Of a DNA stretch of 64,000 bases, positions 16,756 through 18,414 are shown piece by piece. The position numbers and the translations under genes were made by a program. Every line of letters starts with the position of its first letter. The stretch's first letter is position 1. The DNA comes from Bryobacterales bacterium (GTDB lineage Bacteria; Acidobacteriota; Terriglobia; Bryobacterales; UBA6623), in contig CBDFIW010000003.1 of NCBI GenBank assembly GCA_965248255.1, positions 993,239 through 1,057,238 of the forward strand, written 5' to 3'. The notes under the pieces were generated by a model. It did not search any database and had not been told where the DNA came from. It worked only from the letters and a program-made list of their open reading frames with translations.

Positions 16756-17012
16756 GGCCTCGACTCGAAAGCGAGTGGTTCCGGAGTGGACGTACAGGGA
16801 ACGGGCCTCCCGCAGCAGGATCGCCGGGTCCCGCGAACCGCCAGCCGACGGCCGGACACGGCCTAGACGGGAGATGCGCTGAGATCGGGCGGCTTGTGAT
16901 CCGAAAAGGTGCCTGTTTCAATGCATAGGTAGTGGCGAAGAGGAATCCTCCCGGGGGCAAAATGCTGAGAACGACCAGCCGGTCGGCTCAGAGCCAATCC
17001 CAGGAGGATTCC

Positions 17013-18020
17013 ATGCATGAACTCTACTACATCGGACTCGATGTCCATAAGAAAAGCATCAGCTTCTGCATCAAAACGCAAGACGGAACCATCGTCGCCC
17101 GCGGTCAGGTCGCGGCCACCCGCGCAGCCCTCGAGCGCCCCTGGGTGGGCGCGCTCGAAGCCACGCTGTTCACGGGTTGGATTCACGATCACCTCCAGCC
17201 CTTCGCGCGCGAGTTGCAAGTCGCGCACCCGGCCATGCTCAAGGCCATCGCTTGTGGCAAGAAGAAGAACGACCGTCTCGACGCCACCAAGATCAGTGAC
17301 CTGTTGCGTTGCGACCTGCTGCCACGCTGCTACTTGGCGCCGCCCGCCCTGCGCGAGTTGCGGCGTGTACTGCGCTATCGCAATCTGCTGCTGGGCGAAG
17401 CCGTCCGCATGAAGAACAAGATCAGCGGGCTGCTGATGGAGGTCGGCGAACCCTACGATGCCCGGCGGCTGCACGGCCGGCGTTATTTCTATTCGTATCT
17501 CGACAGCTTGCGTGACACGCCCGAGTCGGTCATCGAACTGCTCGCCATCACCCGCGGCAGCCTGGAAATGTTCGATCGTTTGCAAGACGAGTTACTGCGC
17601 GGCTTGCGGCGCCATCCGCTGCTGCGGGAACGCGTCGAGCGCTTGCAGTCGATTCGCGGCGTGGGGGAGGTGACGGCGCTGAGTTGGGCGCTGGAGACCG
17701 TTGAGCCCGAGCGCTTCGGTTCGGTGGGCCGGCTGGTGAGTTACTGCGGGCTATGTGCGGCGCAGCGCGAGTCGGGGGGCAAAACGCAGCGCGGACCGCT
17801 GTCGAAGCAACGCAACAAGCATTTGCAGCGGGTGCTGATCGAGGCGGCGAAACTCGCGCCGCGCTGGAACCCGCAGCTGCACGACGTCCATGAGCGGGAG
17901 TTGCAGCGCGGCCCGCGCAATCGCGCGACGTTGGCCGTGGCGCGCAAGTTGGTGGCATATCTGCGGGCTGTGGACACCAGCGGCCGAGCGTTCGTGCCGC
18001 GGGTGGCGGCCGCGGCGTAA
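17013..18020 (+). CDS. IS110-family transposase/recombinase (DEDD_Tnp_IS110 + Transposase_20)
   Basis: MHELYYIGLDVHKKSISFC..., ...IRGVGEVTALSWALE..., ...YCGLCAAQRESGGKTQRGPLSKQRNKHLQRVL.. The listed ORF start at 16932 is probably too early. Confidence 0.9.
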   Translation: MHELYYIGLDVHKKSISFCIKTQDGTIVARGQVAATRAALERPWVGALEATLFTGWIHDHLQPFARELQVAHPAMLKAIACGKKKNDRLDATKISDLLRCDLLPRCYLAPPALRELRRVLRYRNLLLGEAVRMKNKISGLLMEVGEPYDARRLHGRRYFYSYLDSLRDTPESVIELLAITRGSLEMFDRLQDELLRGLRRHPLLRERVERLQSIRGVGEVTALSWALETVEPERFGSVGRLVSYCGLCAAQRESGGKTQRGPLSKQRNKHLQRVLIEAAKLAPRWNPQLHDVHERELQRGPRNRATLAVARKLVAYLRAVDTSGRAFVPRVAAAA

Positions 18021-18414
18021 CGAGGAGAATTTACTTTTTTTCTGTTGCAAGGAGAAACGAAGAGTTTCACCGACGCTGTGCGGTGTCACGAGCTGCCCGC
18101 CGGTCCTCGCCTGTGGGGGACTACGCGAAGGGGTTTCCTCGAGAGTTTACGGGGAAACCTCTGATGCGTCCGTATTGTCTGTTTCGAGGCCGGCGGGCCT
18201 GAAAATCCAAACTGAATCTTCCGCGACGGTCCCCCGCCGCTGAGGTGGGGCGACCCGATGCGCGCACATGGATGTCTGGTCACGTGACTCGTTGACCTTG
18301 TGACTTGATTCGCAAAAACGCTCGGGCTGCGAAGCGTCACTGCTGAACACCGCGCCCCCGCTGACGGGAGGTTCCGGATGACTGCGTCCATCCTTGACAG
18401 ATACCTATCATGGA
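18021..18414 (+). ncRNA. candidate IS110/IS1111-type guide (bridge/seek) RNA region in the 3' non-coding end; second copy at 18666-19059
   Basis: This is a 394-nt non-coding tail with stem-loops (18130-18138/18153-18161; 18187-18200). It contains short same-sense copies of the insertion-site flanks: CTGTTTC at 18179-18185, GTCCCCC at 18229-18235, and CATGGATGTC at 18267-18276. Confidence 0.35.

What the first reader, a model, noticed from the sequence alone, without database searches (positions are those of the whole stretch)
16921..18414. IS110/IS1111-like element whose long 3' non-coding end contains copies of its own insertion site: candidate guide (bridge/seek) RNA
**Layout.** The recombinase gene (17013..18020) has only about 92 nt of 5' non-coding sequence but 394 nt of 3' non-coding sequence. 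A 7-bp subterminal inverted repeat is present (ATAGGTA 16925-16931 / TACCTAT 18402-18408). This is the IS1111-subgroup layout.

**Matches to the insertion site.** Inside the 3' tail I see three same-sense matches:
- TG.CTGTTTC (18176-18185) matches the left flank at 16910-16919.
- GTCCCCC (18229-18235) matches the right flank at 19061-19067.
- CATGGATGTC (18267-18276) is identical to the right-end/flank junction at 19054-19063.

**Structure.** Stem-loops flank these segments: 18130-18138 pairs with 18153-18161, and AGGCC-GGCG-GGCCT lies at 18187-18200. GGTCCCCCGCC...GGTGGGGCGACC can form an interrupted stem.

**Interpretation.** IS110-family recombinases are known to use an element-encoded RNA with target- and donor-binding loops. 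The segments above are what guide loops for this particular target would look like.
Basis: partly seen in the sequence, partly recalled or inferred. Interest (0 to 1): 0.7.

Follow-up and report, generated by a model that had tools for sequence, protein, structure and literature searches.

The report
Jumping gene carrying its guide RNA
A small jumping gene that has split a bacterial gene carries, behind its enzyme gene, a folded guide RNA whose loops spell out both its landing site and its own ends; it is a well-supported new example of the bridge/seek-RNA-guided insertion sequences described in 2024, not a new kind of system.

Summary
The finding is real and its main reading holds, but several details needed correcting.

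**Element.** An IS110-family (IS1111-type) element lies at 16917-18414. A 3-nt core, TGT, sits on both sides. It interrupts a minus-strand host gene.

**RNA.** The 3' non-coding end encodes a conserved RNA of about 200 nt (18096-18297). In 23 diverged relatives, 26 of 36 base pairs show compensatory changes.

**Guides.** Four guide segments are present, with the strand logic of IS621 and the loop order of IS1111 seekRNAs:
- RTG, 18110-18121, antisense to the right flank GTCCCCCA.
- LTG plus core, 18174-18182.
- RDG, 18212-18218.
- LDG plus core, 18267-18275.

The guides covary with the flanks across lineages (0 of 100,000 permutations reach the observed match). Forty-six copies in one Bryobacterales genome give the target logo YC-TGT-CCCC-R-A.

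- CATGGATGTC is the donor guide.
- TG.CTGTTTC is the left target guide plus core plus the element's own first bases.
- Sense GTCCCCC (18229-18235) lies in a variable hairpin and is not a guide. The true right guide is antisense, 110 nt upstream.

**Partial copy.** This gives a second RNA gene. Such right-end tandem units recur in relatives and fit the "half-match" expansions described in preprints.

**Verdict.** New member of a known kind.

The parts
16914..16916 (.). Left copy of the 3-nt core TGT, shared by target and donor. The left target half (LT) ...GGTGCC lies just upstream.
   Evidence: Every related insertion has xTGT|TT(C/G)AATG at the left junction. In 46 copies from one genome the core reads T46/G46/T46 and position -1 is C in 45 of 46.
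16917..18414 (+). Full copy of the IS1111-type element, 1498 nt without the core. It runs from TTCAATGCATAGG to CCTATCATGGA.
   Evidence: The ends were defined by 46+ independent insertions. They were also defined by uninterrupted REP-like targets. Removing 16917..19062 restores a host protein that aligns without gaps to ortholog P0121, and the DNA of L082 is colinear.
16917..16931 (+). Left end. It holds the right-donor half-site (RD) TTCAATG and the left subterminal inverted repeat ATAGGTA (16925-31). TTCAAT is a candidate -10 box of a circle-junction promoter.
   Evidence: The left end is conserved in all lineages. The inverted repeat covaries with its partner at the right end. The promoter role is an inference.
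17013..18020 (+). DEDD/serine recombinase (transposase) gene, 335 aa. An AGGAGG ribosome-binding site lies upstream.
   Evidence: It matches PF01548 + PF02371 and NF033542 above its cut-off. The motifs GLD(10)VH, LE(49)AT, ND(87)RLD(90)A and RES(254)GG are present. ESG aligns with ESG of ISCro4, 9t56. There are 6330 homologs; the best is 95% identical.
17770..17772 (+). Internal break point (AGT) where the partial copy begins. It lies inside the codons for the catalytic E-S-G.
   Evidence: The exact repeat starts at 17770 and cannot be extended by a single base to the left.
18096..18297 (+). Bridge/seek RNA gene, copy 1. It has two modules, a target-binding loop and a donor-binding loop, followed by a 3' hairpin.
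   Evidence: RNAalifold on 23 sequences predicts 36 pairs, 26 with compensatory changes. The minimum free energy is -98.4 kcal/mol, z = -3.7. The nhmmer profile hits only 18093-18309 and 18738-18954 in the window, on the + strand, and hits 74 of 80 related loci.
18096..18109 (+). P1 5' arm. It pairs with 18186-18198 and closes the target-binding loop.
   Evidence: The helix has 13 pairs, 11 with changes on both sides, and 98.3% of cells are paired.
18110..18121 (+). Right target guide (RTG), CCUGUGGGGGAC, antisense. Its reverse complement, GTCCCCCACAGG, matches the host flank GTCCCCCA (19061-19068) over 8 contiguous bases.
   Evidence: The position is fixed in the alignment. The variable 5' part covaries with right flanks in 22 lineages: cognate mean 4.0 against 2.7, 0 of 100,000 permutations. 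The 43-flank logo reads CCCC-A/G-A/C-C.
18124..18168 (+). P2 stem (18124-26 with 18166-68) capped by a variable hairpin (18130-18161).
   Evidence: All three P2 pairs and the hairpin pairs show compensatory changes. The stem forms in the minimum-free-energy fold.
18174..18185 (+). Left target guide (LTG) AUUGUC (18174-79), core UGU (18180-82), then UUC (18183-85, identical to the element's first bases).
   Evidence: The 6 nt before UGU covary with the 6 nt before the TGT of the left flank: cognate mean 3.6 against 1.8, 0 of 100,000 permutations. Examples are L047 GAGGC/GAGGC, L052 GTGTT/GTGTT, L061 TATAC/TATAC and L076 GGAAG/GGAAG, and L087 GTGCC/GTGCC.
18186..18198 (+). P1 3' arm, GAGGCCGGCGGGC.
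   Evidence: See P1.
18212..18218 (+). Right donor guide (RDG), CUGAAUC, antisense to core-G plus TTCA of the left end.
   Evidence: Lineages whose left end is TTCA have UGAA here (6 of 6). Lineages with TTGA have UCAA (14 of 14). Four lineages are off by one base.
18221..18264 (+). P3 stem (18221-24 with 18260-64; 18228-30 with 18253-55) capped by a lineage-variable hairpin.
   Evidence: The pairs show compensatory changes. The hairpin sequence is unrelated in L045, L047, L052, L053 and L054, although these share the GTCCC right flank.
18267..18276 (+). Left donor guide (LDG) CAUGGA plus core UGU (plus C). It has the same sense as the right end CATGGA|TGT. As DNA it is also an internal LD half-site.
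   Evidence: This is the only match beyond chance on the single sequence, p=0.0025. It is invariant in the family. In L062 and L074 both the guide and the right end read ATAGA. In relatives the 142- and 134-nt tandem units start here.
18278..18297 (+). P4, the 3' hairpin (GGUCACG ... CGUUGACC).
   Evidence: It has 7 pairs, 4 with changes on both sides, and 95% of cells are paired.
18394..18414 (+). Right end. It holds a conserved TTGACA (18394-99, candidate -35 box), the right subterminal repeat TACCTAT (18402-08) and the terminus CATGGA (18409-14, the LD half-site).
   Evidence: CTTGAC lies at a fixed distance from the end in 14 of 16 lineages. In a circle junction TTGACA would lie 18 nt from TTCAAT; this is an inference. 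PMC11187229 reports that the only promoter in ISEc11 is the one formed at the circle junction.
18415..19059 (+). Partial tandem copy, an exact repeat of 17770-18414. It contains the 3' 251 nt of the recombinase gene, a second intact RNA gene (18741-18942) and a second right end.
   Evidence: 645 of 645 bases are identical. The second profile hit is at 18738-18954. The same architecture occurs in relatives.
19060..19068 (.). Right copy of the core TGT (19060-62) and the right target half CCCCCA.
   Evidence: The junction table, the logo and pairing with the RTG.
16480..16916 (-). Downstream (C-terminal) part of the interrupted host gene.
   Evidence: The rebuilt protein aligns over 347 of 347 residues, 88% identical and without gaps, to P0121.
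19060..19663 (-). Upstream part of the interrupted host gene. It contains a CxxCH motif.

Best explanation
**What it is.** This is an IS1111-type member of the IS110 family of RNA-guided insertion sequences. It sits in a minus-strand host gene at the site GGTGCC-TGT-CCCCCA.

**The RNA.** Behind its DEDD/serine recombinase gene, the element encodes a bridge (seek) RNA of about 200 nt (18096-18297) built from two similar modules.
- *Module 1, the target-binding loop, closed by stem P1.*
  - On its 5' side is an antisense guide, CCUGUGGGGGAC. It pairs with the top strand of the right half of the target (GT-CCCCCA).
  - On its 3' side is a sense guide, AUUGUC-UGU. It pairs with the bottom strand of the left half plus core (TGCC-TGT, with one U·G wobble).
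- *Module 2, the donor-binding loop.*
  - On its 5' side is an antisense guide, UGAAUC, for the element's left end (G·TTCA).
  - On its 3' side is a sense guide, CAUGGA-UGU, for its right end plus core.

**How it works (by analogy with IS621 and ISEc11).**
- The excised circle joins ...CCTATCATGGA-TGT-TTCAATGCATAGG.
- That junction probably creates a TTGACA-N18-TTCAAT promoter, which would drive the recombinase gene and the RNA downstream of it.
- Recombinase tetramers, holding both loops, exchange strands at the shared TGT between circle and target.

**The partial copy.** The 645-nt partial copy (18415-19059) is a secondary product. The right-end junction (LD-core), or a tandem-dimer junction, recombined with an internal GTC site in the recombinase gene. 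This left a second RNA gene.

**Shown here:** the element's boundaries, the conserved fold, the guide-flank covariation and the recurrence of the tandem units.

**Inferred:** that the RNA is made, that it binds the enzyme, the strand-exchange chemistry, the junction promoter, and the route to the partial copy.
For: **Recombinase family.**

**Boundaries and core**
- 46+ independent insertions share the same junctions.
- Uninterrupted REP-like targets exist.
- An uninterrupted ortholog aligns without gaps to the rebuilt host protein and DNA.

**Conserved RNA**
- Of 36 consensus pairs, 26 have compensatory changes and 95.9% of cells are paired.
- No shuffle (0 of 500) and no slid control comes close.
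- Many G-U pairs fix the strand as +.
- The fold z-score is -3.7.
- The profile is found downstream of the recombinase gene in 74 of 80 related loci, from Acidobacteriota to Ca. Scalindua, Geobacter and Desulfofustis.

**Guides**
- Cognate pairs beat non-cognate pairs, with 0 of 100,000 permutations for both RT/RTG and LT/LTG.
- Explicit matches include L053 GTCCCGG, L052 GTCCCTAC, L054 CCCTATT, L069 GTCCCCTTG and L074 CCCCTATTT, and L087 GTGCC.
- The 46-copy logo YC|TGT|CCCC R A C has C/T and A/G at the positions read by guide U, as wobble pairing predicts.
- For the donor guides, RDG UGAA/UCAA tracks TTCA/TTGA and LDG ATAGA tracks the right end ATAGA.

**Agreement with published systems**
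- The strand logic (L guides pair with the bottom strand, R guides with the top strand) equals that of IS621 (PMC11208158).
- The order, top-strand match 5' of bottom-strand match, equals that of IS1111 seekRNAs (PMC11187229).
- No internal promoter was found, as reported for ISEc11.
Against: - There is no expression or binding data.
- No Rfam family matches, even at E<=10, and the published IS1111 bridge-RNA models could not be run.
- On the single window sequence, the target-guide matches (7-8 nt) are within chance. The case rests on comparative data.
- The relatives are phylogenetically related, so the permutation counts overstate independence.
- Donor-guide covariation rests on one or two evolutionary events. 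The RDG is short, and in this element it has one mismatch (U opposite T).
- No closing stem was found for the donor loop.
- The break point of the window's partial copy (AGT, with no LT/RT match) is not explained by guide pairing.
Confidence: 0.88

Rival explanations
1. The conserved tail is a DNA-level feature. It would be recombinase-binding sites or end-recognition sequences, or a DNA cruciform, with no functional RNA. The flank matches would then reflect protein-read target preference.
For: The donor-type segments (CATGGATGT, TGTTTC) are nearly invariant and identical to the element's ends, as protein-binding repeats could be. No promoter or terminator was found. No Rfam family matches.
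Against: The stems keep pairing through G-C to A-U swaps. They also keep it through G-U pairs, which would be A-C mismatches on the other strand or in duplex DNA. The variable guide positions change together with the flanks, which a fixed protein-DNA code does not predict. Related IS1111 elements have been shown experimentally to need such an RNA (PMC11187229).
Confidence: 0.04
2. The tail encodes a structured RNA with another role. It could be a 3' UTR stabiliser or terminator, or a small regulatory RNA riding on the element like Ssr9 of ISPpu9. It would not be a guide.
For: The structure is conserved. ISPpu9 carries a downstream small-RNA gene that was not required for transposition (PMC12288879).
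Against: Four segments lie in loop positions. Their sequences equal or complement LT, RT, RD and LD, with the strand rule of IS621. They covary with the flanks across lineages. No terminator-like T run follows the hairpins.
Confidence: 0.05
3. The flank matches are chance similarities in G+C-rich DNA, and the tail has no relation to target choice.
For: Single-sequence shuffles give p=0.25 (CTGTTTC), 0.16 (sense GTCCCCC) and 0.15 (antisense 8-mer).
Against: CATGGATGTC gives p=0.0025. The guide positions are fixed in a conserved fold, and cognate guide-flank matching is never reached in 100,000 permutations. Forty-six copies share the predicted target.
Confidence: 0.02

Closest known systems
seekRNAs of IS1111-family elements ISEc11, ISKpn4, ISPa11 and ISPst6 (Siddiquee et al. 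2024, PMC11187229)
   Same: - Subterminal inverted repeats.
- A short 5' and a long 3' non-coding region.
- A recombinase of 330-350 aa.
- An RNA encoded downstream of the recombinase gene.
- A segment complementary to the target's top strand lying 5' of a segment complementary to its bottom strand.
- No internal promoter, with a promoter expected only at the circle junction.
- REP-like palindromes among the natural targets.
- Module 1 here (18096-18198, 103 nt) is about the size of the 82-96-nt 'peak' seekRNA. The two modules together correspond to the 'long' form.
   Different: - The recombinase is only distantly related to plasmid-borne or characterised members: at most 34% identity to anything in PLSDB, except one Desulfocapsa record at 61%.
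- The target is different (YC-TGT-CCCC-R-A).
- The GL-P----SG motif reads GLCAAQRESG.
- Explicit donor guides (RDG and LDG) are visible here, whereas the seekRNA paper described only target matches.
- Nothing has been tested experimentally.
IS621 / IS622 / ISCro4 bridge RNA (Durrant et al. 2024, PMC11208160; Hiraizumi et al. 2024, PMC11208158)
   Same: - A two-loop RNA, with each loop carrying a left guide that pairs with the bottom strand and a right guide that pairs with the top strand.
- A short core shared by donor and target.
- A DEDD plus serine recombinase.
- A circle-junction promoter.
   Different: - The RNA is at the 3' end, not the 5' end.
- The guide order within each loop is reversed (R guide on the 5' side).
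- The core is TGT (3 nt shared) rather than CT.
- The subterminal repeats are long.
- The protein similarity is marginal: E about 1e-6, C-terminal domain only.
- No counterpart of the handshake guides could be assigned with confidence.
Tandem or partial IS110 modules and half-match recombination (preprints 10.64898/2026.08.14.744561 and 10.64898/2026.08.31.748434; ISPpu9 modular circles, PMC12288879)
   Same: - Repeat units of non-coding end sequence accumulate next to the recombinase gene.
- Each unit keeps one authentic donor boundary (LD only).
- The internal break points recur at a few positions.
   Different: - Here the units are right-end units of an IS1111-type element, and the larger ones carry a complete RNA gene.
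- The commonest small unit (142 or 134 nt) starts exactly at the DNA that encodes the LDG.
- The window's own break point has an AGT core and an unexplained 12-nt homology to the host flank, nearly in register.

Membership tests
IS110 family of RNA-guided (DEDD/serine) recombinase elements | A recombinase with an N-terminal RuvC-like DEDD domain (PF01548) and a C-terminal Tnp domain (PF02371). | tested here: met
   PF01548 scores 54.5 bits (cut-off 29) and PF02371 scores 69.3 bits (cut-off 21.3). NF033542 scores 168.4 bits (cut-off 140).
IS110 family of RNA-guided (DEDD/serine) recombinase elements | Catalytic D-E-D-D residues and the conserved serine of the SG motif. | tested here: met
   D10 (GLDVH), E49 (LEAT), D87 and D90 (NDRLDA) and S254 (RESGG) are present in the translation. 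ESG aligns with ESG of ISCro4. The N-terminal residues were assigned by motif only, not by a structural alignment.
IS110 family of RNA-guided (DEDD/serine) recombinase elements | Sequence-specific insertion with a short core shared by donor and target and no longer target duplication. | tested here: met
   TGT lies on both sides in all junctions. The empty site is rebuilt exactly by removing the element plus one TGT.
IS110 family of RNA-guided (DEDD/serine) recombinase elements | Transposition through a circular intermediate with abutted ends. | not testable with these tools
   This needs PCR or long reads across the predicted junction CCTATCATGGA-TGT-TTCAATGCATAGG.
IS1111 subgroup | Subterminal inverted repeats of 7-17 bp, set in from the ends. 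| tested here: met
   ATAGGTA 16925-31 pairs with TACCTAT 18402-08. They lie 8 and 6 nt from the ends. The two arms covary in relatives.
IS1111 subgroup | The long non-coding region lies downstream of the recombinase gene. | tested here: met
   There are 96 nt upstream (16917-17012) and 394 nt downstream (18021-18414).
IS1111 subgroup | A recombinase of 330-350 aa with a GL-P----S/TG motif (PMC11187229). | tested here: inconclusive
   The protein is 335 aa. The motif reads GLCAAQRESG, so G, L and SG are kept but P is replaced by A.
IS1111 subgroup | The recombinase clusters phylogenetically with IS1111-type reference transposases. | not tested
   No ISfinder reference sequences were available. 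The only result is a distant relation to the IS110-group enzymes IS621 and ISCro4.
Bridge RNA / seekRNA | A conserved structured RNA encoded in the long non-coding end. | tested here: met
   Of 36 pairs, 26 have compensatory changes and 95.9% of cells are paired. Shuffles give 12.1±1.8 (0 of 500) and slid controls give at most 11.
Bridge RNA / seekRNA | Loop segments that pair with both strands of the target on either side of the insertion point, and that covary with the target. | tested here: met
   See the RTG/RT and LTG/LT tables and the permutation test, 0 of 100,000 each. The 46-site logo shows wobble-compatible degeneracy.
Bridge RNA / seekRNA | Loop segments that pair with the donor (element ends), and that covary with them. 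| tested here: met
   LDG CAUGGAUGU equals the right end plus core, p=0.0025 on the single sequence. ATAGA occurs in both guide and end in L062 and L074. RDG UGAA/UCAA tracks TTCA/TTGA in 20 of 24 lineages. These represent few independent events.
Bridge RNA / seekRNA | IS1111-type order: the top-strand match lies 5' of the bottom-strand match. | tested here: met
   The RTG (18110-21) lies 5' of the LTG (18174-82), and the RDG (18212-18) lies 5' of the LDG (18267-75). Compare PMC11187229.
Bridge RNA / seekRNA | A match to published covariance models of IS110/IS1111 bridge RNAs. | not testable with these tools
   Rfam 15 gave no relevant hit at E<=10. The published models are not in the tool set. 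An nhmmer profile was used instead.
Bridge RNA / seekRNA | The RNA is expressed, binds the recombinase and is required for transposition, and reprogramming it redirects insertion. | not testable with these tools
   This can only be tested experimentally.

The most novel reading that the evidence does not exclude
Because the left guides are encoded in the sense orientation, the RNA gene itself contains DNA copies of the half-sites it reads. For example, CATGGA-TGT at 18267-75 is an internal LD site. The element would therefore be intrinsically self-targeting. This would drive tandem amplification of right-end units, seen as 2 to 12 right ends per locus in five lineages. The larger units multiply intact guide-RNA genes and may raise RNA dosage or yield truncated helper RNAs.

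The window's own unit starts at a non-canonical AGT site. Its downstream 30 nt shares a 12-mer, nearly in register, with the host flank (p about 1e-4). That would point to a homology-assisted way of choosing pseudo-targets that current half-match models do not include.
Probability: 0.12. Interest if true: 0.6.

Novelty: new member of a known kind. Interest (0 to 1): 0.35.

Why it matters
**Adds a member to a young class.** The finding adds an uncharacterised and widely spread lineage to the RNA-guided IS1111-type elements. The lineage occurs in Acidobacteriota/Bryobacterales, Desulfobacterota, Ca. Scalindua and Sumerlaeaceae.
- All four guides, the 3-nt core and the fold can be read directly from sequence.
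- A natural set of 46 insertions in one genome shows how much mismatch and wobble the guides tolerate.
- This is useful raw material for people mining compact programmable recombinases.

**Practical annotation value.**
- The host gene is interrupted, not truncated.
- The 645-nt repeat is a product of the element, not an assembly error.
- The real element ends differ from the obvious ones.

**Limits.** The finding does not change the current picture of how these elements work.

Tried and rejected
**Searches that gave nothing**
1. An Rfam 15 scan of 16500-19500 at E<=10 returned only spurious low-score hits: a snoRNA, a glutamine riboswitch at 19 bits and similar.
An nhmmer profile replaced it.
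3. The promoter/terminator scan of 16800-19200 found no promoter-like site and no relevant terminator.
4. Pfam on the rebuilt host protein gave no domain.
5. The metagenome scan for the window-specific guide string GTATTGTCTGTTTCGAGGCC found nothing. A second scan with the LDG region gave 7 short contigs, which added two more LT/LTG examples.
6. The look-up of P0122, probably the window's own truncated host ORF, was not on record, so the source organism was not identified directly.
7. A search for other intact targets (YCTGTCCCCCA, up to 1 mismatch) gave one weak hit, below chance expectation. A search for CTGTTTCAATGTCCCC-type empty sites found none.

**Readings rejected**
Uninterrupted REP-like units also lack TTCA.
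9. *Sense GTCCCCC (18229-35) as a guide.* The sequence is not conserved and does not follow the RTG change in the L043 lineage.
10. *Local hairpin 18187-18200.* It is replaced by the long-range stem P1.
11. *Unequal crossing-over at the shared 12-mer as the origin of the 645-nt repeat.* This predicts RE|TGTCCCCCAGGTCAAA|12-mer at the first junction, whereas RE|AGTCGGGGGGCAAAACGC|12-mer is observed.
12. *Guide-directed self-insertion at 17770.* Apart from GTC, the site matches neither LTG nor RTG.

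
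Full report
**1. What is at the coordinates**

The ORF 17013..18020 (+) encodes a 335-aa protein.
- It has the two domains of IS110-family recombinases: PF01548 and PF02371.
- It matches NCBIfam NF033542, 'IS110 family RNA-guided transposase', at 168 bits against a cut-off of 140.
- The motifs GLD10VH, LE49AT, ND87RLD90A and RES254GG are present.
- The ESG segment aligns with that of the solved ISCro4 and IS621 enzymes, but only at E about 1e-6, so this is a distant subgroup.

**2.

Positions 18415-19059 are a 100% identical copy of 17770-18414: 645 nt, with no extension to the left. The locus is therefore one full element followed directly by a partial copy. That copy holds the last 251 nt of the recombinase gene, the whole 3' tail and a second right end. 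No other copy of the element is present in the window.

**3. True boundaries**

A scan of one genome per species returned 80 related loci. About 46 of them are copies of an element about 90% identical in DNA, all within one Bryobacterales MAG chromosome.
- Every junction reads ...xTGT|TT(C/G)AATG(C/T)ATA(G/A)G on the left and ...TATCATGGA|TGTCCC on the right.
- Sequence upstream of the left TGT varies from copy to copy. TTCA/TTGA travels with the element.
- Uninterrupted copies of a REP-like palindrome, which is a frequent target in that genome, read GTAGCC-TGT-CC(C/T)CGAC, with no TTCA.
- For the window itself, removing 16917..19062 rebuilds a host protein. That protein aligns over 347 of 347 residues, without gaps and at 88% identity, to an uninterrupted ortholog. 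The ortholog's DNA is colinear across the site.

The element is therefore 16917-18414, and a 3-nt core TGT is present on both sides (16914-16 and, after the last right end, 19060-62). In the 46-copy set the central G and the last T of the core never vary, and the first base is T in 39 of 43 right junctions.

**4. A conserved RNA in the tail**

Tails of relatives down to 57-62% protein identity share a block of about 200 nt. These relatives include Ca. Scalindua, Geobacter, Desulfofustis and Sumerlaeaceae. A 23-sequence alignment (A1) gives a consensus fold of 36 pairs, 26 of them with compensatory changes.

Counting pairs on that fold:

| Measure | Observed | Control |
|---|---|---|
| Cells paired | 95.9% | 29-42% when partners are slid |
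| Pairs with changes on both sides | 26 | 12.1±1.8 in shuffles (0 of 500 reach 26); at most 11 when slid |

Frequent G-U pairs fix the strand as +.

In window coordinates the helices are:
- P1: 18096-18109 with 18186-18198.
- P2: 18124-26 with 18166-68, capped by the hairpin 18130-18161.
- P3: 18221-24 with 18260-64, and 18228-30 with 18253-55, capped by a variable hairpin.
- P4: 18278-84 with 18290-97.

The window sequence folds this way on its own: -98.4 kcal/mol, z = -3.7. A sequence profile of A1 hits the window only at 18093-18309 and 18738-18954, both on the + strand, and hits 74 of 80 related loci. Rfam has no matching family.

**5. Four guides**

The two modules are built alike: 5' single strand, stem, hairpin, 3' single strand.

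| Guide | Position | Sequence | What it reads |
|---|---|---|---|
| RTG (module 1, 5' strand) | 18110-21 | CCUGUGGGGGAC | Antisense; its reverse complement GTCCCCCACAGG matches the host right flank GTCCCCCA over 8 bases |
| LTG (module 1, 3' strand) | 18174-82 | AUUGUC-UGU | Same sense as the left flank TGCC-TGT |
| RDG (module 2, 5' strand) | 18212-18 | CUGAAUC | Antisense to G·TTCA of the left end |
| LDG (module 2, 3' strand) | 18267-75 | CAUGGA-UGU | Same sense as the right end plus core |

- *Target guides covary with the flanks.* The variable parts change together across lineages (table). Right-flank examples are L053 GTCCCGG, L052 GTCCCTAC, L054 CCCTATT, L069 GTCCCCTTG, L070 CCCCGGTT and L074 CCCCTATTT. 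Left-flank examples are L047 GAGGC, L052 GTGTT, L061 TATAC, L076 GGAAG and L080 TCAAC, plus L087 GTGCC from a metagenome contig.
- *Permutation test.* Cognate guide-flank pairs score 4.0 against 2.7 (right) and 3.6 against 1.8 (left) matches out of 6. No permutation out of 100,000 reaches the observed sum. The lineages are related, so these counts overstate independence.
- *Target logo.* The 46 copies with one guide set give YC|TGT|CCCC-(A/G)-(A/C)-C. Mixed C/T or A/G occurs exactly where the guide has U, as wobble pairing predicts.
- *Donor guides.* UGAA goes with TTCA in 6 of 6 lineages, and UCAA with TTGA in 14 of 14. Four lineages are off by one base. The LDG variant AUAGA co-occurs with a right end CATAGA in L062 and L074. 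These are few independent events.

The strand rule is that of IS621: left guides pair with the bottom strand and right guides with the top strand (PMC11208158). The order, top-strand match 5' of bottom-strand match, is the one reported for IS1111 seekRNAs (PMC11187229).

**6.

- *CATGGATGTC* is the LDG plus core plus one base. It is the only match that beats chance on the single sequence, p=0.0025.
- *TG.CTGTTTC* is LTG plus core plus UUC. The UUC equals the element's own first bases, and its C pairs in P1. The 7-nt exact match alone is not significant (p=0.25).
- *Sense GTCCCCC* (18229-35) sits in the P3 hairpin. That hairpin's sequence is unrelated in L045, L047, L052, L053 and L054 despite their GTCCC flanks, and it does not follow the RTG change in the L043 lineage. 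It is best read as coincidence (p=0.16).
- The 'AGGCC-GGCG-GGCCT' hairpin is instead the 3' arm of P1.

**7. How it most likely works**

This section is inference, by analogy with IS621 and ISEc11.
- The excised circle abuts the ends as CCTATCATGGA-TGT-TTCAATGCATAGG.
- A conserved TTGACA at 18394-99 then lies 18 nt from TTCAAT, forming a candidate junction promoter. CTTGAC lies at a fixed distance from the end in 14 of 16 lineages.
- No internal promoter was found, as reported for ISEc11. The RNA may therefore be processed from the recombinase transcript.
- Module 2 holds the circle junction and module 1 holds the target. The recombinase exchanges strands within TGT.
- In the window the recognised site is about 13 bp, TGCC-TGT-CCCCCA, inside a coding gene, and that gene is now split.

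**8. The partial copy**

Right-end tandem units directly after a full copy recur widely:
- in 13 of 46 copies in the MAG, with break points at element positions about 880, 1164, 1191 and 1347, and up to 12 right ends in L038;
- in L043, L064, L052 and L081;
- in the window itself.

All internal break points read TGTC; in the window it is AGTC. The small 142- and 134-nt units begin exactly at the DNA encoding the LDG, which is an internal copy of the right end plus core. [quoted passage not shown] It also fits the modular circles of ISPpu9.

A plausible route is recombination of the right-end junction, or of a tandem-dimer junction, with a nearby core-only site. This was not tested. One consequence in the window is two identical RNA genes for one recombinase gene.

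**9. Unexplained**

The window's break point is atypical. It has an AGT core and no match to LTG or RTG. Yet the 30 nt after it and the 28 nt of host DNA after the true right end share the 12-mer AGCGCGGACCGC, at offsets 18 and 16 from the junctions.
- Only three unrelated 11-mer matches to that flank exist in 128 kb of window sequence, so an in-register match has p of about 1e-4.
- The host copy is native.
- Simple unequal crossing-over at the 12-mer predicts a different junction.
- The other arrays show no such homology.

**10. Comparison and novelty**

The element meets the tested defining features of the IS110 family, of the IS1111 subgroup and of bridge/seek RNAs.
- *IS1111 subgroup:* subterminal repeats, 3' non-coding region and protein size. 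The GL-P----SG motif is imperfect, and phylogenetic placement was not tested.
- *Bridge/seek RNA:* conserved fold, dual-strand target guides that covary, donor guides and IS1111 guide order.
- *Untestable here:* expression, binding to the recombinase and necessity for transposition.

It is a new, uncharacterised lineage of a known kind. The tandem right-end units are also already described in outline. Interest is moderate to low for a specialist. The value lies in a clean natural example with a 46-site target logo and in correct annotation of the locus.

Noticed in passing
window 18415-19059 (= 17770-18414); also L009, L013, L019-L022, L030, L031, L034, L038, L039, L043, L049, L052, L064, L081: Tandem partial right-end copies follow a full element in five lineages, with up to 12 right ends in L038 (142-nt period). 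All internal break points read TGTC (AGTC in the window). The small units start at the DNA that encodes the left-donor guide.
   Followed up: partly
window 17788-17799 and 19076-19087: The 12-mer AGCGCGGACCGC occurs both 18 nt after the internal break point and 16 nt after the true right end, in host DNA. An in-register match has p of about 1e-4. The host copy is native: the ortholog has ACGGACCGC at the same place. No mechanism was found.
   Followed up: partly
L002 3564-4597 (also L007, L011, L016, L022): A nested IS of about 1.03 kb lies between the recombinase stop codon and the RNA gene in five copies at different chromosomal sites. It has a 310-aa ORF (PF12762 DDE_Tnp_IS1595 plus PF12760 zinc ribbon) and 28-bp terminal inverted repeats. 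The composite element therefore apparently kept moving. L057, L059 and L063 also have about 1.1 kb between the gene and the RNA.
   Followed up: partly
window 19670-19672 (minus strand): An in-frame TAG separates the ORFs 19670..20488 and ..19663 of the interrupted host locus. The ortholog P0121/L082 reads through this position and is annotated as two overlapping genes. This may be a second lesion in the host gene or a different gene structure.
   Followed up: no
window 18394-18399 with 16917-16922: A conserved TTGACA lies near the right end. In a circle junction it would sit 18 nt from TTCAAT at the left end, making a candidate junction promoter for the recombinase gene and the RNA.
   Followed up: partly
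L014, L018, L019, L026, L030, L033, L035, L084 flanks; uninterrupted in L032 2374-2400, L035 (-) 4367, L045 971: Many insertions in Bryobacterales genomes lie inside a REP-like palindrome, GAAAGT(C/A)GTAGCC-TGT-CCCCGACTTTC. This is the probable natural target repeat of this lineage.
   Followed up: partly
window 18378-18665 (+): A 95-aa chimeric ORF starts in the first right end and runs into the repeated 3' part of the recombinase gene. It is probably a by-product of the duplication.
   Followed up: no
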